A DNA stretch of 32,000 nucleotides. Origin: Gemmata obscuriglobus (GTDB lineage: Bacteria; Planctomycetota; Planctomycetia; Gemmatales; Gemmataceae). This document shows positions 19,801 to 29,486 of this stretch, piece by piece. The stretch spans positions 450,001-482,000 of the forward strand of contig NZ_CP042911.1 of NCBI RefSeq assembly GCF_008065095.1, in the 5' to 3' direction. The notes beneath the pieces were generated by a model. The model saw nothing but the letters and a program-made list of their open reading frames with translations. It was not told the origin of the DNA and did not search any database. Within the stretch, counting starts at the first letter, position 1; the number at the start of each line of letters is the position of its first letter. The position numbers and the translations under genes are program-made.

Positions 19801-19813
19801 CCGCCCTCGCGTT

Positions 19814-19935
19814 GTGTCTGGAGTGTGGCCCGCTCGCTCCGCGAGCGGTGCTTCGCGCGTCAGATCACGGTTACGAATCGCAGCACCGGCCACATCGCAA
19901 CCGCTCGCGGAGTGAGCGGACCACACCCCAGACAC
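19814..19935. repeat. Long inverted repeat (35-nt arms, 52-nt spacer) filling the convergent kinase / heme-protein gap; REP/MITE-like element or bidirectional terminator
   Basis: The left arm, GTGTCTGGAGTGTGGCCCGCTCGCTCCGCGAGCGG (19814-19848), pairs with the right arm, CCGCTCGCGGAGTGAGCGGACCACACCCCAGACAC (19901-19935), at 32 of 35 positions. The three differences are all transitions. Each arm also contains its own small hairpin (CCGCTCGC-TCC-GCGAGCGG). Confidence 0.7.
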
Positions 19936-19959
19936 CACACGGGTTCCGCGCGAACCGCG

Positions 19960-21732
19960 TCAATCGTCCTTCGCGGGCGGGATCGGGTCGACCGGCTTTA
20001 CCGCCTTCGGTTCGACCGGCGCGGGCGCCTCGGCCTTCCCGTCCTTCTCGTCCTTCGGAGCCGGCGCGTCGAACGCAGCCAGGTACGCCGAGAAGCCCTT
20101 GTAGCTGTCGAGCGGGTAATCCTCCTGCTTCTTGCCCGGCGCGTGGCACGTCGCGCACCGGTTGTCGATCAGCGTCTTGATCTTCACCTTACCGTCTTTC
20201 ACGAAGTCCGGCGTGACGGCCTTGTCGCCCCCGCCCGGGAACTCGAACGTGTCGGCCTCGTAGCTGCTCTTGCGCACCGCGTCCGGGCTGCGCGCCCACG
20301 CGACCAGCGCATTAAGGTCGCTCTGGCGCTGGGCCTTGAGCTTGTCCTGCTCGGCCGGCGAGCCGCTCTTCATCGCGTCCGCGTACTTCTTTTCCTTGTC
20401 GAAGAACGCGCGGATCATGCCGCCGTCTTCCCCCCCCGCGAACTTCAGCTCGGTCAGCGGAACCGGCTTGCCCGCGGGATCGAGCGGCCGCGTCAACAGC
20501 CGGTCGATTTCGTTGATCGGCTTCTTGGGCGTGACCACCACCGGAACAAAAGGTTCCTTCTTGTCTTCCATCTTCTTGTCCTCAGGCTTCTTGACCTCGG
20601 GCTTCTTGATCTCGGGCTTGCCCGCGTCCGGTTCCGGGTCCGCGGCCTGCTTGTCCTCGACCTTCGGCTTCGGCAGGGCGGGCACGAGCAACTTCGTCAC
20701 GAACGCCCCGCCCGCGACCGCGCCCACCACGAACAGCAGCCCGATCACCACCCGCCCCTTGAGCCCGTACATGGTGAACAGGCTGCCGGCGATGTGGACG
20801 AACAGCCCGACGGCGGCGAGGAACCCGGTGAGGATCACGGCCATCGCGAAGAACGGCCCGTACTCGTCGCACAGCCGGGCGAGCCACCACATCGACACGT
20901 CCGCGAACACCATGACCACGACCCACGGCCCGCCGATCACGCGCATCCACGCCGGCCAACTGCTCAGCGCGAAGATCAGCCCCGTGAGCGAGAACAGCAC
21001 CGCGAAGCTCAGCAGGTGGGCGTGGGTCGATTGCGTCAGCTTGCTGATGCTGATCGGCTCCTCGACCTTGATGTAGCCGTACTTGTCGGGCTGCGGCGGG
21101 GGCGGCGGGGGCGGAACGAACTTCATCAGCCCCGCGTAGCTGTCGAGCGCCGGCTCCTCCTTCTCGCCGCCCTTCGAGTGGCACGTCACGCACCGGGAGT
21201 CGATCAGCGTCTTGATCTTGACCGCGTCGCCGTCCTTCAGCCCCGCGGTCAGGGCCTTCGGCGTCTTGCCGGCGGGCGGCACGAACTTGTCGGCCTCGTA
21301 GGCCGCCTTACGCTCCGCGTCCGGCGTGCGGATCCACTGCACGAGCACCCGCTGCTCGCCCTTGCGCTCGGCCCGCACCTCGGCCTCCGGGCGCGCCTTG
21401 ACGTGCTCCGAGAACTTGAGGTGCTTCGGCCCGCGGTCGTGCGCGGTGAACGCGCCGGCCATCGTGCTGCCGTTGATCTCTTCCGTCTGGGCGACGATCA
21501 GCGCCTCGAGCCGGGATGCCGGTGACTCCGGGGGCGGCGCGTTGGGGTCGAACTTCTTCTTGCCGGTGAACTTCAGCACCACGTCCTCGGGCGTGGGCAT
21601 CGGCTTGCCGGACTTCGAGTCCTGGATGTGCAGTTGCAGCACCGCCGACGAGTACCCGGCGCCCACCGCGAGCAGGAACACGGTCGCCACCACCTTGACG
21701 GGCAGGGGCAGGTCACGGAGCGTGTAACTCAT
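19960..21732 (-). CDS. Polytopic membrane protein with two duplicated CxxCH (c-type heme-binding, PSCyt1-like) modules
   Basis: CVTCH (21178-21192) and CATCH (20143-20157). Each sits in a repeated module: W(I/A)R.PDA.RK..YEAD.F...G....T....KDG.VKIKTLID.RC.TCH..G.K.E..LDSY.G. TM1 is near the N-terminus and four TMs lie between the modules. GGAG lies 8 nt upstream of the ATG at 21732. Confidence 0.75.
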   Translation of the reverse strand: MSYTLRDLPLPVKVVATVFLLAVGAGYSSAVLQLHIQDSKSGKPMPTPEDVVLKFTGKKKFDPNAPPPESPASRLEALIVAQTEEINGSTMAGAFTAHDRGPKHLKFSEHVKARPEAEVRAERKGEQRVLVQWIRTPDAERKAAYEADKFVPPAGKTPKALTAGLKDGDAVKIKTLIDSRCVTCHSKGGEKEEPALDSYAGLMKFVPPPPPPPQPDKYGYIKVEEPISISKLTQSTHAHLLSFAVLFSLTGLIFALSSWPAWMRVIGGPWVVVMVFADVSMWWLARLCDEYGPFFAMAVILTGFLAAVGLFVHIAGSLFTMYGLKGRVVIGLLFVVGAVAGGAFVTKLLVPALPKPKVEDKQAADPEPDAGKPEIKKPEVKKPEDKKMEDKKEPFVPVVVTPKKPINEIDRLLTRPLDPAGKPVPLTELKFAGGEDGGMIRAFFDKEKKYADAMKSGSPAEQDKLKAQRQSDLNALVAWARSPDAVRKSSYEADTFEFPGGGDKAVTPDFVKDGKVKIKTLIDNRCATCHAPGKKQEDYPLDSYKGFSAYLAAFDAPAPKDEKDGKAEAPAPVEPKAVKPVDPIPPAKDD

Positions 21733-23187: not shown

Positions 23188-23344
23188 GTAATGCGTTCCA
23201 ATGGCGAGATAGGTGAATTGTAACCGGCCCACCGCATCCGGAAACGAGAATTCGGGCGCCGCGCCGGCGGAAGTGACCGCGCGAGCCGGAACGGGACACC
23301 GCCCCGAAATTCGCCAGTCTTTCCGAACCGAGTGAAAGTTGGGC

Positions 23345-23400
23345 TTGTCGCTTATTTCACAAGTGGTTACTATTTACCGGACGGACCAATCCGTTAAATA
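23345..23400 (+). promoter_or_regulatory. Candidate promoter (TTGTCG-17 nt-TACTAT) and overlapping imperfect inverted repeat (candidate TetR operator)
   Basis: TTGTCG at 23345-23350 and TACTAT at 23368-23373. Inverted repeat: TATTTA(23371-76)..ACGGA(23381-85) CCAA TCCGT(23390-94) TAAATA(23395-400). This is the AT-richest stretch of the locus, directly upstream of tetR (ATG 23423). Confidence 0.4.
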
Positions 23401-23422
23401 TCTAAAATCAGTGAAACGCCGT

Positions 23423-24061
23423 ATGAGTGTCACTGAGAACCGGAAGCCCGGGCGCCCGCGCGACCCCGATCTGGAGGCGCGGCGCAAGGCCCAGATCCTG
23501 GACACCGCCGCCCGCGTGTTCGCCACCTTCGGGTTCGCGAACACGCAGGTGCAGACCATCGCCAACCACCTCGGGGTCGGGAACGGGACCGTGTACCGGT
23601 ACTTCCCGACCAAGGAGCAACTGTTCCTCAGCGCCGTCGAGCGCGGGCTGAAGGAGCTGGAAGCCGAGATGGACGGCGTGCTGGCGCAGCCCCACCAAGG
23701 GGCCGACCTGATCCGCGCCGCGGTGCGGGCGTACCTGGGGTTCTTCCACCGGCGGCCCGAGATGGCGGAGCTGTTCATCCAGGAGCGGGCCGCGTTCCCG
23801 CACCACCACCGGCCGCTCTACTTCGTCACCAAGAACGCCGAGGCCGAGTGCAAGCACGAGGCGTTCTTCAACCACCTCGTGAGCGCCGGCGCGATCCGGG
23901 CGGTGCCGCGGGAGCGGTTCTTTAACGTGCTGGGCGATCTGCTGTACGGCACCATCCTCACCAACCTGCTGACCGGCCGCCCGAGCGACCCGGACGCGCA
24001 GGCCGCGGACGTGCTCGATGTGGTGCTGAACGGTGTTCTTGCGGCAAAGGAGACGCGATGA
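23423..24061 (+). CDS. TetR-family transcriptional regulator of the RND operon
   Basis: ILDTAARVFATFGFANTQVQTIANHLGVGNGTVYRYFPTKEQLF. ATG at 23423 follows the only AT-rich stretch of the locus. Its stop overlaps the next ATG (ATGA at 24058-24061). Confidence 0.9.
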   Translation: MSVTENRKPGRPRDPDLEARRKAQILDTAARVFATFGFANTQVQTIANHLGVGNGTVYRYFPTKEQLFLSAVERGLKELEAEMDGVLAQPHQGADLIRAAVRAYLGFFHRRPEMAELFIQERAAFPHHHRPLYFVTKNAEAECKHEAFFNHLVSAGAIRAVPRERFFNVLGDLLYGTILTNLLTGRPSDPDAQAADVLDVVLNGVLAAKETR

Positions 24062-25512
24062 GCGCAGAACCGACACCCCTCGAAGGCACCCAAAGCAACC
24101 CACCCCCCGGCCCCCGCGCCGCGCTCGCCGGCCCTGTCAGCGGAGCTTCCGCGGGCCGGCGGGCAGGGAGGGGGGGGGCGGCGGATGCCCCTCGCACGCT
24201 CGATTCGCAAGGCGTTTCGGGAGTGCCTTCTCTCCCCCTTCCCTTCAGGGAGGGGGGCCGGGGGAGTCGGTTGGTACCGCTCCTGCTCCTCGCCCTCCTG
24301 TTCCCCGCGTGCGCGCCGAAGCCGCCCGCGACCACCGCGGACGCCGCCGCGAAGGTGGTCCCGGTGACGGTCGCCGAGGCGAAGGCGATGAAGCTGCGGC
24401 GCACGGTCCCGGTGTCCGGCACGCTGTACCCCTACGAGGACGTGATGCTCGCGCCGAAGGTCGGCGGGCGGGTGCTGCGCGCGTACCACGACGTGGGCGC
24501 GCGGGTCCGCCCCGGCGAGCTGCTCATGGAACTCGACCCCACGGAGTTCCGCCTCGCGGTCGACCAGGCCCGGCCCGCGTTCGAGGGCGAGCTGCGCAAG
24601 CTGAAACTGGCCGCGCTGCCCGCCTCCGACGCCGAGTTCGAGCCGCTGATCGCCAAGGTGGACGCGGTGGCCGAGGCGAAGGCCAACGCCGACTTCGCGG
24701 ACTCCGAGCTGAAGCGGGTCGAGAAGGAGGTCGCGGGCGGGGTCGGGTCGCGCCAGGCGCTCGACTCCGCGATCAACCGCGTGGCGGTCGCGCGGACCCG
24801 GGTGCTGGTGGCGGAGACCGAGGCCCGGGTGACGCTCGCCAACGCCCGCCGGCTCAAGGCCGCGCTCGAGGACGCCGAGCGCAAGCTCGCGGACACGAAG
24901 CTGTGCGCCCCGAACCCGCCCGAGTGGAACGACTGGGTGCAGCAGCTCGGCACGACCGCGACCCCGCTGTCCTACGCCGTGGCCCAGCGGATGGTCACGC
25001 CCGGCTCGTCGGTCGAGTCGATGCCGCTGACCAACTGCTTCCGGCTGGTGATCGACCACGCGCTGAAGTTCGGGGTCGCGGTGCCCGAGAAGCACGCGCC
25101 GGACGTGCTGGTGAACCAGCAGGTGGAGCTGAGCGTGCTGGCCCACCCGGGGCACCTGTTCAACGGGTTCGTGGCCCGGATCAGCCCCACCATCGACCCG
25201 ACCAGCCGCACCTTCGGGGTGGTGATCGGGGTGCGCAACGGGGACGGCCGGCTGAAGGCCGGCGGGTTCGCGACCGGGGAGGTGGTGGTCGGCTCCGACG
25301 CGGTGACCACGGTGCCGCCGGAGGCGCTGGTGTCGTTCGCCGGGGTGAACAAGGTGTTCGTGGTCGAGGGCGACAAGGCCCGCGCGGTCGAGGTGACGGT
25401 GGGCACGCGCGACAAGGCGTGGCTGGAGGTGGCCGGCGTGCCCGCGGGCGCGAAGGTGGTCACGAGCGGGCAGTCGCAACTGGTGGACGGCGCCCCCGTC
25501 CGGATCAAGTAG
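24058..25512 (+). CDS. RND efflux periplasmic adaptor (MFP); true start uncertain (ATG 24058 or TTG 24271)
   Basis: Lipoprotein-like segment LVPLLLLALLFPAC, then VTVAEAKAMKLRRTVPVSGTLYPYEDVMLAPKVGGRV...VRPGELLMELDP (lipoyl hairpin), a coiled coil, and beta-barrel/MP domains. The first 71 codons are G/P/R-rich, have visibly more A/T at third positions, and contain a repeat element. See the findings. Confidence 0.85.
   Translation: MSAEPTPLEGTQSNPPPGPRAALAGPVSGASAGRRAGRGGAADAPRTLDSQGVSGVPSLPLPFREGGRGSRLVPLLLLALLFPACAPKPPATTADAAAKVVPVTVAEAKAMKLRRTVPVSGTLYPYEDVMLAPKVGGRVLRAYHDVGARVRPGELLMELDPTEFRLAVDQARPAFEGELRKLKLAALPASDAEFEPLIAKVDAVAEAKANADFADSELKRVEKEVAGGVGSRQALDSAINRVAVARTRVLVAETEARVTLANARRLKAALEDAERKLADTKLCAPNPPEWNDWVQQLGTTATPLSYAVAQRMVTPGSSVESMPLTNCFRLVIDHALKFGVAVPEKHAPDVLVNQQVELSVLAHPGHLFNGFVARISPTIDPTSRTFGVVIGVRNGDGRLKAGGFATGEVVVGSDAVTTVPPEALVSFAGVNKVFVVEGDKARAVEVTVGTRDKAWLEVAGVPAGAKVVTSGQSQLVDGAPVRIK
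24232..24264. repeat. Second copy of the 33-nt repeat (opposite orientation) in the tetR-MFP junction / MFP 5' region
   Basis: CTCCCCCTTCCCTTCAGGGAGGGGGGCCGGGGG (24232-24264) is the exact reverse complement (33/33, compared by hand) of 27639-27671. A degenerate partial copy, GGGCAGGGAGGGGGGGGG, lies at 24161-24178. Confidence 0.75.
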
Positions 25513-25642
25513 TCCCAGGTCGTCAGGTCGCAAGTCCCAAGTCAATAACAGGGAGCACCGATGGCGGCCATTGGCGAGCGGTCCCAGGTCGTCAGGTCGC
25601 AAGTCCCAAGTCAGTAACAGGGGAGCACCGATGGCGGCCATT
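25512..25642 (+). repeat. Tandem duplication (period 69 nt) of the upstream flank and first codons of the four-helix-bundle gene
   Basis: 25512-25572 and 25581-25642 differ only by one substitution and one 1-nt indel: GTCCCAGGTCGTCAGGTCGCAAGTCCCAAGTCA(A/G)TAACAGGG(G)AGCACCGATGGCGGCCATT. Confidence 0.85.
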
Positions 25643-25999
25643 CGACGGTTCGAGGACATTGAAGCCTGGAAGCGGGCGCGCGTCCTGACCAACTTAGTGT
25701 TTCAGATCACGGGCGGGGCGGCCTTCGACCGCGATTACGGGTTCCGGCGTCAGATGCGGGACGCGGCGCTGTCGGTGATGTCGAACATCGCTGAGGGGTA
25801 CGAACGAGACAGCGGCGACAAAGACTTTCGGCACTTCCTTTCCATCGCGAAAGGTTCGGCCGGGGAGGTCCGAAGCCAGCTTTACGCGGCGCTAGACAAC
25901 AATTTCATTTCTCAAACGCAGTTCGACGAGGCGTCGGCACTCACGACCGAGGTATGCCGGATGCTTCAGCGGTTCATGTCGTACTTGTCGGGCGAGTGA
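25631..25999 (+). CDS. Four-helix-bundle protein (23S rRNA intervening-sequence protein family, Avd-like fold)
   Basis: MAAIRRFEDIEAWKRARVL...FRRQMRDAALSVMSNIAEGYERDSGDKDFRHFLSIAKGSAGEVRSQLYAA matches the family pattern (W..A...., Q..RAa.Si..NIAEG, F..fL.iA.GS..E). GGGGAG lies 5 nt upstream of the ATG at 25631. It has many more A/T-ending codons than neighbouring genes. Confidence 0.85.
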   Translation: MAAIRRFEDIEAWKRARVLTNLVFQITGGAAFDRDYGFRRQMRDAALSVMSNIAEGYERDSGDKDFRHFLSIAKGSAGEVRSQLYAALDNNFISQTQFDEASALTTEVCRMLQRFMSYLSGE

Positions 26000-26132: not shown

Positions 26133-29100
26133 ATGGCCATCTGGGACATCTGCATCCGCCGCCCGGTGTTCACCACCATGCTCGTGCTCGGGCCGGTGGT
26201 GCTCGGGATGGCGTCCTACGGGCGGCTCGGGGTCGAGCTGTTCCCCAACGTGGACGTGCCCGTCGTGGTGGTCACCACCACGCTCCGCGGCGCCGGCGTC
26301 GAGGAGATGGAGTCGAGCGTCACCCGCCCGGTCGAGGAGGCGGTGAACACCGTCTCGGGCATCGACGAGCTGCGCTCCACCACCAAGGAGGGCGTGTCCA
26401 GCGTCGTCATCGGGTTCAAGCTGGAGCGGAACGGCGACATCGCGGCCCAGGACGTGCGCGACCGCATCTCCACGCTGCTCCCGCGGCTCCCCTACGGCAC
26501 CGACGCGCCGGTGGTCGAGAAGTTCAACCTGGACGCGGCCCCGGTCGTGACGGTGGTGGTGTCCGGCGGGCCGGGGCGCAAGCTGCGCGAGGTCACCGAG
26601 ATCGCCAAGAAGCAGATCAAGGAGGACCTGGAAGGGGTGACCGGGGTCGGGTCCGTGGTGCTGGTCGGCGGCGAGCAGCGGGCGGTGAACGTGACGCTGC
26701 GGCCCGAGCGGCTCCGCGCGCTGAGCCCGCCCCTGTCCCCCGAGGACGTGCGGCGGGCGCTGGCGGCGCAGAACATCGAGCTGCCGGGCGGGAAGGTGGA
26801 CGGCGGCGCCCAGGAGCGCGGGCTGCGCGTGGTGGGCCGCATCCAGACCCCGGCGGACTTCGAGAACGTCATCATCGAGACCCGCACCGACGAGAACGGG
26901 CTCAAGTACGCGGTCCGCGTGAAGGACGTGGCGGACGTCACCGACGACATCGAGGAGCCCCGCGGGAAGTCGCGCCTGGACGGCAACGTCGCGGTCAGCC
27001 TCGTCATCCAGAAGCAGTCCGGCGGGAACACGGTGGCGGTCGCGGACCGGGTGAAGGAGCGGCTCGCCAAGATCCAGTCGGGGCTCCCGGCCGACATCAA
27101 GACCGAGATCATCCGCGACCAGAGCAAGTTCATCAAGGGGTCCATCGAGGAGGTGAAGTTCCACCTCGTGCTGGCCGCGGTGCTGGTGATCGCGACCATC
27201 TTCATCTTCCTCCGCGACTGGCGGGCCACGCTGATCGCCGCGACCGCGGTGCCGACCAGCATCGTGGGCACGTTCGCGTTCATGGACGTGATGGGGTTCT
27301 CGCTCAACAACATGACCCTGCTCGGGCTGATCCTGGCGGTCGGGATCGTGATCGACGACGCGGTGGTGGTGCTGGAGAACGTGTTCCGGTACACGGAGGA
27401 GTACGGGCTCAGCGGGTGGGACGCGGCCAGCAAGGCGACCAAGGAAATCGCGCTGGCGGTGGTGGCGACGACGCTGTCGCTGGTGGTGATCTTCGCGCCG
27501 ATCGCGTTCATGTCCGGCCAGGTGGGGCGGTTCTTCAACAGCTTCGGGTTCGTGGTCGCGTTTGCGATCATGATGAGCATGGCGGTCAGCTTCACGCTCA
27601 CTCCGATGCTGTGCGCCCGGCTGCTGCGGGGACCGACCCCCCCGGCCCCCCTCCCTGAAGGGAAGGGGGAGAAAGAACCTTCGCGCGCCGATCACGAACC
27701 CGGCGCGCACACCGCGAGCGAATCGGACTCCCCCACTCCCTTCAGGGAGGGGACGGGGGTAGGTTCCTCCCACGCCCACTCGTCCGGCTGGCTCACGCGG
27801 TGGTACGTCGGCACCCTCGCCTGGTCCCTGCGGCACCGGTGGGTGATCGTGCTCGCCACGGTCATCACGTTCCTCAGCACGCCGGTGCTGTTCGTGCTCG
27901 TCGGCACCGACTTCGTGCCGAAGGACGACCAGAGCGAGTTCGAGGTCGCCATCACCCTGAAGGAGGGCTCGACGCTCGCCACCGCCGAGGCGCAGTGCGC
28001 GGAGCTGGAAGAGAAACTCAAGAAGGTGCGCGGGGTGACCAACGTGTTCACCGTGATCGGCCCCACCGACGGGCGCGCGCCGAAGGGGCAGGGGGACGTG
28101 ACGCAGGTCAACATCTACTGCCGGATGAGCGACATCTCGCTGCGCGACTTCGCGCAGCGCGACGCGATGGCCGACGCCCGCGTGGTGCTGGCCGACTACC
28201 CCGACCTGCGCACCTCCGTGCAGGACGTGAAGCTGATCAGCTCGAGCGCGTTCAAGAACGCGCAACTGGACCTCAGCATCCGCGGCCCCGACGGCGACAA
28301 GCTCGACCGGTACGCGGCCGAGATCATGAAGAAGATGAAGGCGAACCCGAAGTTCACCGACGTGGACACCAACGCCGCGGCCCGCAGCCCGGAGCTGCAG
28401 GTGCGCATCGACCGCCAGCGGGCGGCGGACCAGAAGGTGAACGTGCAGGGCGTGGCCACCGCGCTCAGCCTGCTGGTGGGCGGCGAACCGGTCACGAAGT
28501 ACAAGGAGGGCTCGGACCAGTACGACGTGTGGCTCCGCGCCGCGCTCCCGAGCCGCGACCGGTCCGCCACGATCGACCAGTTGCTCGTGCCCGACACGAA
28601 GGGGCAGATGGTGGAGCTGCGCACCCTCGCCCGGCTCGCCGACGAGCGCGGGCCGGCGACCATCGAGCGGTACAACCGGCAGCGGCAGATCGGCGTGCAG
28701 TGCAACTTCGCGCCCGGGGTGGCGCTCGGCAACGTGCTGCCGGAGGTGGAGGGGTACGTGAAGGAGCTGGACCTGCCGCCGGAGTACCGGTACGAGTTCC
28801 TCGGCGAGGCCAAGCTGATGGCCGACTCCAACGCCAACTTCCTGCTCGCGTTCTTCCTGGCGTTCGTGTTCATGTACATGATCCTGGCGGCGCAGTTCGA
28901 GAGCCTCGTCCACCCGATCACGATCCTGATGGCCGTGCCGCTGACGCTGCCGTTCGCGCTGATCTCGCTGATGCTGCTGCGCACGCCCCTGGACATCTAC
29001 GCGATGATCGGGCTGTTCATGCTGTTCGGCATCGTGAAGAAGAACGGCATCTTGCAGGTGGACTACACGAACGTGCTGATCGCGAAGGGGCTCCCGCGCG

Positions 29101-29486
29101 ACGAGGCGATCCTCCGTGCGAACGAGGCCCGGTTCCGGCCGATCCTCATGACGACCGTGATGCTGGTGGCGGCGATGATCCCCATCGCGACCGGGAGCGG
29201 CCCCGGGGCCGGCGCCCGGGCCAGCATGGCGAAGGTGATCCTCGGCGGGCAACTCCTGTCGCTGCTGCTGTCGCTCCTGGTGACGCCGGTGGCGTACTCG
29301 ATCTGGGACGACATGATGAACCGCGGGAAGCGGGTGGCGGCGTGGATCGACCGGCGGCGCACGCGGCCGGCCCCGGCGGCAATCGCGATGGCGGAACCGG
29401 TCGCGGAGCACGCGGCGGCCGAAACGGTTCAGGAAGTGCCGGTGTTCCGGGAGGCCGAATCGGACGCCGCCCCGACCGGGTCGTAA
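26133..29486 (+). CDS. RND efflux transporter permease (AcrB/HAE-type), carrying an in-frame repeat-derived insert in the TM6-TM7 cytoplasmic loop
   Basis: 1117-aa ORF. N-terminal IRRPVFTTMLVLGPVVLGMASYGRLGVELFPNVDVPVVVVTT. Twelve-TM architecture with two large periplasmic loops. GLILAVGIVIDDAVVVLENV is an RND TM4 motif. Confidence 0.95.
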   Translation: MAIWDICIRRPVFTTMLVLGPVVLGMASYGRLGVELFPNVDVPVVVVTTTLRGAGVEEMESSVTRPVEEAVNTVSGIDELRSTTKEGVSSVVIGFKLERNGDIAAQDVRDRISTLLPRLPYGTDAPVVEKFNLDAAPVVTVVVSGGPGRKLREVTEIAKKQIKEDLEGVTGVGSVVLVGGEQRAVNVTLRPERLRALSPPLSPEDVRRALAAQNIELPGGKVDGGAQERGLRVVGRIQTPADFENVIIETRTDENGLKYAVRVKDVADVTDDIEEPRGKSRLDGNVAVSLVIQKQSGGNTVAVADRVKERLAKIQSGLPADIKTEIIRDQSKFIKGSIEEVKFHLVLAAVLVIATIFIFLRDWRATLIAATAVPTSIVGTFAFMDVMGFSLNNMTLLGLILAVGIVIDDAVVVLENVFRYTEEYGLSGWDAASKATKEIALAVVATTLSLVVIFAPIAFMSGQVGRFFNSFGFVVAFAIMMSMAVSFTLTPMLCARLLRGPTPPAPLPEGKGEKEPSRADHEPGAHTASESDSPTPFREGTGVGSSHAHSSGWLTRWYVGTLAWSLRHRWVIVLATVITFLSTPVLFVLVGTDFVPKDDQSEFEVAITLKEGSTLATAEAQCAELEEKLKKVRGVTNVFTVIGPTDGRAPKGQGDVTQVNIYCRMSDISLRDFAQRDAMADARVVLADYPDLRTSVQDVKLISSSAFKNAQLDLSIRGPDGDKLDRYAAEIMKKMKANPKFTDVDTNAAARSPELQVRIDRQRAADQKVNVQGVATALSLLVGGEPVTKYKEGSDQYDVWLRAALPSRDRSATIDQLLVPDTKGQMVELRTLARLADERGPATIERYNRQRQIGVQCNFAPGVALGNVLPEVEGYVKELDLPPEYRYEFLGEAKLMADSNANFLLAFFLAFVFMYMILAAQFESLVHPITILMAVPLTLPFALISLMLLRTPLDIYAMIGLFMLFGIVKKNGILQVDYTNVLIAKGLPRDEAILRANEARFRPILMTTVMLVAAMIPIATGSGPGAGARASMAKVILGGQLLSLLLSLLVTPVAYSIWDDMMNRGKRVAAWIDRRRTRPAPAAIAMAEPVAEHAAAETVQEVPVFREAESDAAPTGS
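27639..27759. mobile_element. MITE/RPE-like insert with terminal inverted repeats inside the RND ORF (in frame)
   Basis: The left end, CCCCCGGCCCCCCTCCCTGAAGGGAAGGGGGAG (27639-27671), and the right end, CTCCCCCACTCCCTTCAGGGAGGGGACGGGGG (27728-27759), are imperfect inverted copies of each other. The codons across the segment show clearly more A/T third positions (gga, cct, gaa, aaa, gat, act, gta, ggt) than the flanking codons. Confidence 0.55.

What the first reader, a model, noticed from the sequence alone, without database searches (positions are those of the whole stretch)
27639..27759. In-frame palindromic-element insertion inside the RND pump gene (RPE-like)
A segment of about 120 nt bounded by imperfect terminal inverted repeats of about 32 nt interrupts the RND ORF. 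The position corresponds to the cytoplasmic loop after TM6 (...LTPMLCARLLRG | PTPPAPLPEGKGEKEPSRADHEPGAHTASESDSPTPFREGTGVG | SSHAHSSGWLTRWY...). The reading frame is preserved, and the segment has relaxed third-position GC compared with the flanks. One terminal repeat is 33/33 identical, in reverse orientation, to a sequence 3.4 kb upstream in the MFP 5' region. The two orientations translate as PLPEGKGE and PLPFREGG. This is the behaviour described for Rickettsia palindromic elements, which insert in frame into proteins and are tolerated. I am not aware of it being described for planctomycete efflux pumps.
Basis: partly seen in the sequence, partly recalled or inferred. Interest (0 to 1): 0.7.

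Follow-up and report, generated by a model that had tools for sequence, protein, structure and literature searches.

The report
In-frame palindromic repeat in efflux pump
A 135-base copy of a widely dispersed palindromic repeat sits in frame inside a Gemmata drug-efflux pump gene and adds a floppy 44-residue loop; about a third of the sampled related copies also sit in frame inside genes, and larger relatives in other phyla carry a small nuclease gene.

Summary
Window 27631-27765 is a 135-nt element with two ~42-nt inverted arms, each holding its own G/C hairpin, and a 55-nt spacer. It lies in frame in the RND pump gene of Gemmata obscuriglobus, in the cytoplasmic loop after TM6. It encodes residues 501-544, which are predicted to be disordered. 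GC3 is 0.75 in the element against 0.97-0.99 in the flanks.

It belongs to a real repeat family. Of 83 evaluable full elements, 26 (31%) lie in frame inside genes, including NuoL, PutA, HrpB, RNase R and CheA. I found no target-site duplication. Arms at one orthologous locus are better conserved than the neighbouring genes.

Unexpectedly, the same arm sequence occurs in Bacteroidales, Chloroflexota, Armatimonadota and others. In Prevotella-type genomes two arms bracket a DUF559 (Vsr-like) endonuclease ORF inserted into unrelated genes. The window copy is probably a nuclease-less miniature of such elements. That link is a hypothesis. I found no description of the family in the searchable literature.

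The parts
26133..29486 (+). RND (HAE1-type, AcrB-like) efflux permease gene, 1117 aa, host of the insertion
   Evidence: Pfam ACR_tran E=6.9e-259 over residues 5-1057. It is 100% identical to the G. obscuriglobus protein P0001.
27631..27765 (+). Whole in-frame palindromic element (135 nt), encoding residues 501-544
   Evidence: Ends were set by alignment to family members. GC3 is 0.75 against 0.97-0.99 in the flanks. It folds as a long hairpin, -92.8 kcal/mol, z=-6.65.
27631..27672 (+). Left arm, near consensus: ACCGACCCCCCCGG + hairpin CCCCCCTCCC-TGAA-GGGAAGGGGG + AG
   Evidence: nhmmer arm model hit at 27630-27675, E=3e-13. It is 40/41 identical to the reverse complement of 24231-24271.
27673..27727 (+). 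Spacer of the 'AGAAAGAACC-TCGCGCGCCGA' subfamily, with its own 8-bp stem (27683-27690 / 27701-27708)
   Evidence: Spacer homology to metagenomic copies: 95% over 65 nt to L144, 91% over 78 nt to L197, 82% over 122 nt to L237. The stem appears in the MFE fold.
27728..27765 (+). Right arm, decayed: one extra A and a deletion in the G-run that together keep the reading frame
   Evidence: nhmmer hit at 27767-27727 (-), E=1e-8. Own-arm symmetry ranks 11th lowest of 77 elements.
24098..24272 (+). Second element at the TetR/MFP junction: left-arm terminus 24098-24116, 46-nt insertion in the left hairpin loop 24117-24162, spacer, and right arm 24229-24272
   Evidence: Alignment with L121, L122 and L123 shows an orthologous element in four genomes, intact in L123. 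nhmmer hit on the right arm, E=1e-12. GC3 is 0.74, which does not look like coding sequence.
23339..24061 (+). TetR-family regulator gene, first gene of the operon
   Evidence: Pfam TetR_N E=2e-16. Synteny is conserved in L121-L123, L245 and L246.
24058..25512 (+). Membrane-fusion (periplasmic adaptor) gene. The longest ORF starts at ATG 24058, but the real start is probably GTG 24217 or TTG 24271, just before the lipobox LLFPAC
   Evidence: Pfam HlyD_D23 and HlyD_3.

Best explanation
The segment is a partly decayed copy of a non-autonomous palindromic repeat element. The element has two ~42-nt inverted arms, each a G/C hairpin with a C-run/G-run tail ending in CCTAC/GTAGG, and a 50-60-nt spacer. 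This copy landed in the part of the RND pump gene that encodes the cytoplasmic loop between TM6 and the I-alpha helix.

The host genome has ~99% GC3, so stop codons are rare and the copy is open in the host frame. It is therefore read through, adding a 44-residue Pro/Gly-rich disordered loop at the junction between the two halves of the pump. I infer that it is tolerated rather than useful. The insertion is old: related genomes carry a copy or remnant at the same spot. It decays by indels that are filtered to keep the frame. Its pristine left arm was probably refreshed by gene conversion from the sister copy 3.4 kb upstream at the TetR/MFP junction (inferred).

The family multiplies as a whole unit, because the same spacer lineages occur in different genes. 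It leaves no target-site duplication. Its arms are kept nearly constant, which points to recognition by a trans-acting protein, to hairpin-templated correction, or to both. The best candidate for the partner enzyme is a DUF559 (Vsr-like PD-(D/E)XK) nuclease, because homologous arms bracket DUF559 ORFs in other genomes. This last step is a hypothesis.
For: Shown:
- Repeat identity and extent.
- Family membership including the spacer.
- At least 120 metagenomic loci with an exact 24-mer; these hold 244 arms, 97 paired elements with a modal length of 131-137 nt, and 50 solo arms.
- At least 11 loci in one assembly, JAESFG01.
- 26 of 83 evaluable full elements and 9 of 35 solo arms lie in frame inside ORFs that show coding GC3 on both sides. 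Pfam domains lie on both sides of the insert in most hosts checked: PNKP, sulfatase-BNR, HrpB, NuoL, PutA, the acyltransferase/AMP-ligase fusion and CheA; in PMT and RNase R the insert sits inside a domain.
- No TSD of 3 nt or more.
- Arms of one element match each other better than arms of other elements (3 of 2000 permutations reach the observed value). One compensatory pair is seen: A-U in 24 sequences, G-C in 15.
- At one locus shared by four genomes the arms are 86-100% identical, while the adjacent DUF559 gene is 67-74% and the spacer 21-66%.
- Orthologous occupancy of the RND loop in L121 (remnant), L122, L245 and L246, with an empty site in L123.
- Disordered loop. Position after TM6. 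GC3 dip.
- About 3 of 6 frames are open in any copy, as expected from GC content alone.
- DUF559 link: arms flank DUF559 in L052, L248 and L249. DUF559+arm modules occur in GT2, FemAB and DegT proteins. DUF559 lies in frame downstream of the element in L214, L192, L172 and L193.
Against: - The complete G. obscuriglobus genome could not be searched. The 32-kb window holds only these two elements.
- No insertion polymorphism (a filled against an empty site in near-identical strains) was seen, so current mobility is inferred, not shown.
- The four Gemmataceae DUF559 cases are one orthologous locus, so they count as a single event. One DUF559 gene lacks an upstream arm. In L250 the arm polarity is reversed. 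No DUF559 gene lies in the window.
- Strong arm conservation could mean the arms have a host function, not only a selfish one.
- The sample was ascertained by an exact left-arm 24-mer, which favours well-kept copies.
- Translation through the element is inferred from frame conservation, not from protein data.
Confidence: 0.75

Rival explanations
1. The element is kept because it works for the host. It could be a structured RNA or DNA module (protein-binding site, mRNA stabiliser, translational pause between the two halves of the pump), or a selected flexible linker, rather than a tolerated passenger.
For: Arms are better conserved than neighbouring protein genes at an orthologous locus, and they stay G+C-rich in genomes of 36-48% GC. 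The hairpin is very stable. Copies persist at the same RND loop and the same TetR/MFP junction in several genomes. In-frame copies sit mostly at domain boundaries. Among copies with coding sequence on one side only, 19 lie upstream of a gene start and 9 downstream of a gene end.
Against: Many orthologues do well with a short loop. The copy in the closest relative, L121, is largely deleted while its flanks are 95% identical. The window's right arm is decayed. Hosts and positions are heterogeneous. There is no Rfam family. The spacer is not conserved across subfamilies.
Confidence: 0.13
2. The insert is removed before the mature pump is made, by intron-like RNA processing or intein-like protein splicing, or the mRNA is cut at the hairpin so that the pump is assembled from two half-proteins.
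For: The insert lies exactly between the two homologous halves of the RND protein. The long perfect RNA hairpin would be a plausible RNase III substrate (inference). Larger relatives carry a nuclease of a clan that includes homing endonucleases of introns and inteins (PMC3424549, PMC9403480).
Against: No Hint/intein or intron features were found; Pfam sees only host domains and DUF559 in the large forms. The frame is preserved in orthologues that differ by many indels. In 26 of 83 family members the frame is preserved, which excision would not require. There is no start codon context for a separate C-terminal half.
Confidence: 0.05
3. The insert is not a mobile element. It is a lineage-specific low-complexity Pro/Gly loop that grew by slippage, and its likeness to the upstream sequence is local gene conversion or chance.
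For: The C and G runs are slippage-prone and their lengths vary between copies. The loop is hypervariable in length among orthologues.
Against: A 24-nt exact core plus homologous flanks and spacer occurs in more than 120 unrelated loci and in unrelated genes. The same arm is found in other phyla. No match to the 33-mer occurred in 100 shuffles.
Confidence: 0.02

Closest known systems
Rickettsia palindromic elements (RPE; Ogata et al. 2000, as summarised in PMC10969869 and PMC3184786)
   Same: Both are 100-150-nt palindromic repeats that are dispersed in the genome. A large fraction is inserted in frame in unrelated housekeeping genes, adding a peptide that the protein fold tolerates. No transposase is known for either.
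   Different: No sequence relationship was shown. The hosts here are free-living bacteria with 8-10-Mb, high-GC genomes, not reduced AT-rich genomes (from my own knowledge of Rickettsia). Here each arm is itself a hairpin, several spacer lineages share one arm, the arm is conserved across phyla, and larger relatives carry a nuclease ORF.
REP / REPIN elements with RAYT transposases, including intragenic REP dimers in Opitutus terrae and R. conorii (PMC3733652, PMC3116915)
   Same: [quoted passage not shown] Both lack a TSD, persist long-term at orthologous sites, and occasionally sit in frame in genes at loops or linkers. Both contain a GTAG/CTAC tetranucleotide near the end.
   Different: GTAG lies 3' of the hairpin and ~8 nt away, not directly 5' of it. 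About 31% of copies are intragenic, rather than mostly extragenic and downstream of genes. No RAYT was found next to a copy. The one Y1 transposase seen (L247) is flanked by a different repeat.
MITEs (for example Correia/NEMIS, RUP, ERIC, Nezha; PMC10969869)
   Same: Both are small, non-coding, bounded by TIRs, multi-copy, and sometimes fused in frame to ORFs. Both look like internally deleted versions of a larger element.
   Different: No target-site duplication was found. No DDE transposase parent was found. The only larger relatives carry a ~125-aa DUF559 nuclease.
Homing endonuclease genes of the Vsr-like/EDxHD family in introns, inteins and 'fractured genes' (I-Bth0305I; PMC3424549, PMC9403480, PMC2677866)
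   Same: The larger relatives (L052, L248, L249, P0125-P0135) are small Vsr-clan nuclease ORFs inserted inside conserved genes. They sometimes leave the host gene in two pieces.
   Different: There is no intron or intein around them. The flanks are palindromic arms translated as Pro/Gly linkers. Insertion sites are many rather than one cognate site. The window copy has no ORF at all.

Membership tests
RND/HAE1 efflux permease (host gene) | Full-length match to the AcrB/AcrD/AcrF family, within a TetR-MFP-RND operon | tested here: met
   ACR_tran E=6.9e-259 over profile positions 3-1019 of 1021. HlyD-type MFP and TetR genes lie upstream.
Rickettsia palindromic elements (RPE) | Palindromic repeat of ~100-150 nt present in many copies | tested here: met
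   135 nt, long hairpin with z=-6.65. At least 120 loci found, with the scan stopped at its limit.
Rickettsia palindromic elements (RPE) | Frequent in-frame insertion in unrelated protein-coding genes | tested here: met
   26 of 83 full elements are in frame. Hosts were confirmed with Pfam.
Rickettsia palindromic elements (RPE) | Sequence homology to one of the RPE families of Rickettsia | not tested
   No RPE sequences were available in the tools used, and Rfam has no hit. Homology is unlikely given the G/C-run composition (own knowledge). I therefore file it as an analogue, not a member.
MITE | Terminal inverted repeats, small size, no coding capacity of its own | tested here: met
   Arms of ~42 nt; modal length 131-137 nt.
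MITE | Target-site duplication flanking the element | tested here: not met
   No direct repeat of 3 nt or more above control was found at any boundary offset in 73 elements.
MITE | Autonomous parent element with the same termini | tested here: inconclusive
   No DDE IS was found. Homologous arms bracket a DUF559 ORF in L052, L248 and L249, but whether that nuclease mobilises anything is unknown.
REP/REPIN-RAYT | Two REP hairpins in inverted orientation forming a larger hairpin | tested here: met
   Each arm has its own stem CCCCCCTCCC/GGGAGGGGGG, and the two arms pair with each other.
REP/REPIN-RAYT | Conserved GTAG directly 5' of the hairpin stem (as I recall the definition used in PMC3733652) | tested here: not met
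   The order here is 5'-CTAC-N8-hairpin, equivalent to hairpin-N8-GTAG-3', so the polarity is reversed and the tag is not adjacent to the stem.
REP/REPIN-RAYT | A RAYT (Y1 HUH) gene flanked by the repeats | tested here: inconclusive
   Only about 1 Mb of related DNA was inspected, and it was not screened systematically for Y1 genes. The single Y1_Tnp gene noticed in gene calls (L247; IS200 model 61.6 bits, RAYT model 20.2 bits, below its cut-off of 80) is flanked by a different repeat.
Intein / intron-borne homing endonuclease | Hint splicing domain or self-splicing intron around the nuclease | tested here: not met
   Precomputed Pfam domains of the insert-bearing proteins are only DUF559, MTES_1575 and the host domains. 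No Rfam intron was found in the window. The window copy has no ORF.
DUF559 (PF04480) nuclease-associated element (provisional grouping) | Arm sequence CCTACCCCC-N2-3-CCCCTCCCTGAAGGGAGGGG homologous to arms that flank DUF559 ORFs | tested here: met
   The arm HMM built from Gemmataceae copies hits both flanks of DUF559 in L052, L248 and L249 (E=1e-6 to 4e-8). L248 and L249 were found through protein similarity, not through the DNA pattern.
DUF559 (PF04480) nuclease-associated element (provisional grouping) | Functional dependence of the miniature copies on the nuclease | not testable with these tools
   This needs genome-wide co-occurrence statistics and biochemistry.

The most novel reading that the evidence does not exclude
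The window element is the miniature form of a previously undescribed, cross-phylum class of selfish element. Its full-length members are a ~125-aa DUF559 (Vsr-like) endonuclease ORF bracketed by two conserved G/C-hairpin arms. They insert into protein-coding genes without an intron or intein. They survive because the arms are read as Pro/Gly linkers, so the host protein carries the nuclease or, after deletion, just a ~45-residue loop. The nuclease would recognise the arms, which would explain why they stay nearly constant from Gemmata (67% GC) to Prevotella-type genomes (36-48% GC) and why no target duplication is made.
Probability: 0.3. Interest if true: 0.85.

Novelty: new variant of a known kind. 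Interest (0 to 1): 0.62.

Why it matters
In-frame 'selfish DNA inside proteins' has been treated mainly as a peculiarity of Rickettsia. Here the same behaviour appears at a comparable rate (about 31% of sampled copies) in free-living planctomycetes with very large genomes, and it affects core enzymes and transporters.

Three consequences follow.
- Annotation: thousands of Pro/Gly-rich 'PLPEGKGE / GAGGVG' stretches in Gemmataceae, Chloroflexota and Bacteroidales proteins, and many N-terminal extensions, are probably repeat-derived.
- Protein evolution: the copies mark loops and linkers that tolerate ~45 extra residues, including the TM6/I-alpha loop of RND pumps.
- Mobile-element biology: the conserved arm and its recurrent pairing with DUF559 give a concrete, testable candidate for the enzyme behind a palindromic repeat family. 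That question is still open for RPEs.

Tried and rejected
1. The genome-contig scan with the 16-mer CCCCTCCCTGAAGGGA was too unspecific. It stopped at 120 rows, about half of them chance hairpins (for example Streptomyces terminators), and never reached G. obscuriglobus, so I have no copy count for the source genome. It did reveal the cross-phylum arms.

2. A protein-profile search with 19 element-encoded peptides (A2) returned only 4 short proteins. Low-complexity correction makes this route useless.

3. The TSD search over all boundary offsets found nothing.

4. 'Pre-adapted open frames' is rejected. About 3 of 6 frames are open in both intergenic and intragenic copies, as expected for ~75% GC.

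5. RAYT as the mobiliser is not supported by the loci inspected. The only Y1 transposase seen is flanked by another repeat family.

6. Four 'independent' DUF559-element adjacencies in Gemmataceae turned out to be one orthologous locus.

7. Element length modulo 3 was not informative, because the true inserted length relative to the empty site is unknown.

8. Rfam gave no family in the window.

9. Literature searches for Gemmata or Planctomycetes with MITE, REPIN or palindromic elements, for DUF559, and for the literal DNA and peptide strings found no description.

10. Assembly artefact is rejected. The identical protein is recorded in 4 member sequences on 4 contigs, and related genomes carry copies at the same site.
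Full report
**Source and setting.** The window is from Gemmata obscuriglobus: the 1117-aa product of ORF 26133-29486 is 100% identical to a protein recorded for that species. The ORF is a full-length AcrB-type RND permease (ACR_tran E=6.9e-259). It follows a TetR gene (23339-24061) and a HlyD-type adaptor gene (ORF 24058-25512). The same TetR-MFP-RND order is found in related genomes.

- The 33-mer 27639-27671 recurs exactly, inverted, at 24232-24264. No match occurred in 100 shuffles.
- The match extends to 40/41.
- Inside the RND gene, two 41-nt arms are 73% complementary.
- Each arm is itself a hairpin (CCCCCCTCCC-TGAA-GGGAAGGGGG) with a C-run tail.
- Comparison with other copies places the ends at 27631 and 27765, giving 135 nt.
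- The segment is in frame and encodes residues 501-544.
- GC3 is 0.75 in the element, against 0.97-0.99 in the 150 codons on either side and 0.98-0.99 in the rest of the gene.
- As RNA, the 148 nt around it fold into one long hairpin of -92.8 kcal/mol (z=-6.65), with a small internal stem in the spacer.

**Position in the protein.**
- Alignments to solved RND pumps end at residue ~499 (equivalent to residue ~497 of the structures, the end of TM6) and resume at ~561 (equivalent to 531).
- An AlphaFold2 model built with 66 orthologues (mean pLDDT 69.9) shows helix 464-497, coil 498-552 with pLDDT<50 over 505-550, then helix 553-567.
- Among 120 orthologues the loop is hypervariable. Its median length is ~20 residues by my measure, against 56 here.

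**It is a member of a real repeat family.**
These show the full architecture: (G)AAGAACCTACCCCCCCGGCCCCCCTCCCTGAAGGGAGGGGGGAG, then a spacer, then the inverted arm ending GGGGGGGTAGGTTCTTC.
- An arm HMM finds 244 arms in these loci: 97 pairs with modal length 131-137 nt, a shorter class of 86-110 nt, and 50 solo arms.
- The window's spacer is homologous to spacers of other copies: 95% over 65 nt, 91% over 78 nt, and 82% over 122 nt.
- At least four spacer lineages share the same arms.
- One spacer lineage (peptide SRLAALDE) sits in three different host genes.
- The unit that multiplies is therefore the whole element, not a lone hairpin.

**In-frame copies are common.**
- I called a copy 'in frame' only if one frame is open through the element and through 60 codons on each side, with a coding GC pattern on both sides.
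- Of 83 evaluable full elements, 26 (31%) pass. Another 16 lie between two genes, 31 have a gene on one side only, and 10 have none. Of 35 evaluable solo arms, 9 pass.
- Pfam shows host domains on both sides of the insert in most hosts checked: PNKP, sulfatase-BNR fusion, HrpB helicase, NuoL, PutA, CheA and an acyltransferase/AMP-ligase fusion. In the PMT glycosyltransferase and RNase R the insert sits inside a domain. For the DcuC, MMPL-type and alpha-amylase-domain hosts the reported Pfam stretch lies on one side only.
- The usual reading is (K/Q/E)PTPPAPLPEGKGE...SPLP(F/S)..GGVG, the same frame as in the window.
- This is not a special adaptation. About 3 of 6 frames are open in intergenic and intragenic copies alike, as expected at ~75% GC.

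**How the copies evolve.**
- No target-site duplication of 3 nt or more is present at any boundary offset.
- Arms of one element resemble each other more than arms of other elements (3 of 2000 permutations reach the observed value).
- One arm-arm pair covaries: A-U in 24 sequences, G-C in 15.
- At a locus shared by four genomes the arms are 86-100% identical, while the adjacent gene is 67-74% and the spacer 21-66%. Only the left arm was selected by the search pattern.
- The RND-loop copy is old. L122 (87% protein identity) has a decayed full copy at the same site. L121 (flanks 95% identical in DNA) keeps only the left terminus and traces of the spacer and is 66 nt shorter. L245 and L246 have well-kept or decayed copies at the same spot with other spacers. 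L123 has none.
- About 20 of 120 orthologues carry arm-like peptides in this loop.
- The TetR/MFP-junction copy is also orthologous in four genomes. It is intact, with stop codons, in L123, where the MFP gene is called to start right after it.
- In the window that region has non-coding GC3 of 0.62-0.74. The upstream copy is therefore more likely a 5' leader than part of the MFP protein.
- The window's RND left arm and the junction right arm share the rare ACCGAC variant and are 40/41 identical, whereas the RND right arm is decayed. Local gene conversion is the simplest account of this; it is an inference.

**An unplanned result.**
- The arm is not confined to planctomycetes. In 56 of the 120 genome-scan loci the 16-mer is preceded by the arm's own 5' motif (CCTACCCCC-N2-3).
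- By record title these are about 10 Planctomycetota, 27 Bacteroidales, 10 Chloroflexota, 2 Armatimonadota, 5 Sphingomonadales and 2 Ruminococcus loci.
- In the Prevotella locus L052, two inverted arms bracket a DUF559 (PF04480, Vsr-like) ORF. The whole module lies in frame inside an intact 521-aa ORF that, by inspection of its sequence, resembles a DegT-type aminotransferase; I did not run Pfam on it.
- A protein search with that insert found the same module, with arm peptides at both ends, in GT2 glycosyltransferases at two different sites, in a FemAB-family protein, and in DegT proteins at another site.
- The DNA of two of these (L248 at 36% GC, L249 at 48% GC) has arm-HMM hits on both sides of DUF559. 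There the host gene is called as two ORFs.
- In Gemmataceae, a DUF559 ORF follows an element and is in frame with it in four genomes, but this is one orthologous locus.
- Free-standing DUF559 genes flanked by related hairpin arms occur elsewhere. One has reversed polarity and one lacks an upstream arm.
- DUF559 belongs to the Vsr clan, which includes the homing endonuclease I-Bth0305I (PMC3424549, PMC9403480).

**Comparison with what is known.**
- The behaviour matches RPEs (PMC10969869, PMC3184786) and the intragenic REP dimers of Opitutus terrae and R. conorii (PMC3733652).
- It is not a canonical GTAG REP, because the tag polarity is reversed.
- It is not a classical MITE, because there is no TSD and no DDE parent.
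- It is not an intein or intron.
- The one Y1 transposase seen is flanked by a different repeat.
- I found no paper in the searchable library that mentions these sequences, these peptides, or DUF559 mobility. Papers outside that library were not checked.

**Verdict.** It belongs to a large, apparently undescribed family.

Firm conclusions:
- The identity and extent of the element.
- Its in-frame position in a disordered loop.
- The existence of the family and the high in-frame rate among sampled copies.
- The absence of a TSD.

Inferred:
- Tolerance rather than function.
- Gene conversion between the two operon copies.
- Translation through the element.

Hypothesis:
- The DUF559 nuclease is the partner enzyme.

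Noticed in passing
L052:815-1282; L248:2780-3290; L249:2610-3045; proteins P0125-P0135: In Bacteroidales, a DUF559 (Vsr-like) nuclease ORF bracketed by arms homologous to the Gemmata arms is inserted inside unrelated genes (DegT at two sites, GT2 at two sites, FemAB). The host ORF is intact in L052 and called as two ORFs in L248 and L249.
   Followed up: partly
Loci L001-L120, for example L013, L015, L028, L044, L059, L070, L072, L102, L107, L109: The arm motif CCTACCCCC-N2-3-CCCCTCCCTGAAGGGAGGGG occurs in Bacteroidales, Chloroflexota, Armatimonadota, Sphingomonadales and Ruminococcus. Examples include ~136-nt paired elements in Chloroflexota and an in-frame solo arm in a Bacteroidales ORF (L013).
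   Followed up: partly
L214:3073-3791; L192:530-1140; L172:6819-7348; L193:1886-2400: At one orthologous Gemmataceae locus a DUF559 ORF lies 0-105 nt downstream of a full element and stays in frame with it, although element lengths differ (129-272 nt). The arms are more conserved than the gene.
   Followed up: yes
window 25512-25649: A 69-nt tandem duplication (two 42-nt cores, 98% identical) between the MFP and RND genes repeats the ribosome-binding region and start (ATGGCGGCCATT) of a 23S_rRNA_IVP-family gene (25571-25999, Pfam E=1.5e-31).
   Followed up: partly
window 19808-19941: Another, unrelated palindromic element: 42-nt arms, 88% complementary, 50 nt apart (CGCGTTGTGTCTGGAGTGTGGCCCGCTCGCTCCGCGAGCGGT and its complement).
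   Followed up: no
L247:2075-2890: An IS200-type Y1 transposase gene (2212-2664) next to an RND orthologue is flanked on both sides by doublets of a different GTAG-containing REP-like repeat (..GGCTACGATATGTCGCCC..). This is a classic RAYT/REPIN-like layout in a planctomycete-like MAG.
   Followed up: partly
L246:1246-1604 (G. massiliana): The TetR/MFP junction carries about five arm hits in a row, and the called MFP is 545 aa instead of 411-445. This suggests stacked elements absorbed into the annotated N-terminus.
   Followed up: no
window 24217-24300; L123:4575-4650; L101:7434-7520; L110:1357-1430: The G-rich right arm often ends 4-25 nt before a likely start codon. Among copies with a gene on one side only, 19 lie upstream of a gene start and 9 downstream of a gene end. 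In the window the arm would supply the Arg-rich n-region or the Shine-Dalgarno-like stretch of the MFP lipoprotein signal.
   Followed up: partly
window 24117-24162: A 46-nt insertion sits in the loop of the left-arm hairpin of the junction element, relative to the orthologue L121. Its origin is unknown.
   Followed up: no
L197:2-3721 (-); L208:2-1936 (-): Single proteins carry two separate in-frame element copies: a CheA-like kinase, in the region between its Hpt and HATPase domains, and an MMPL-type transporter.
   Followed up: no
window 20096-20188 and 21131-21223: A 93-nt direct repeat at 80% identity, 1035 nt apart, probably marks paralogous genes. I did not examine it.
   Followed up: no
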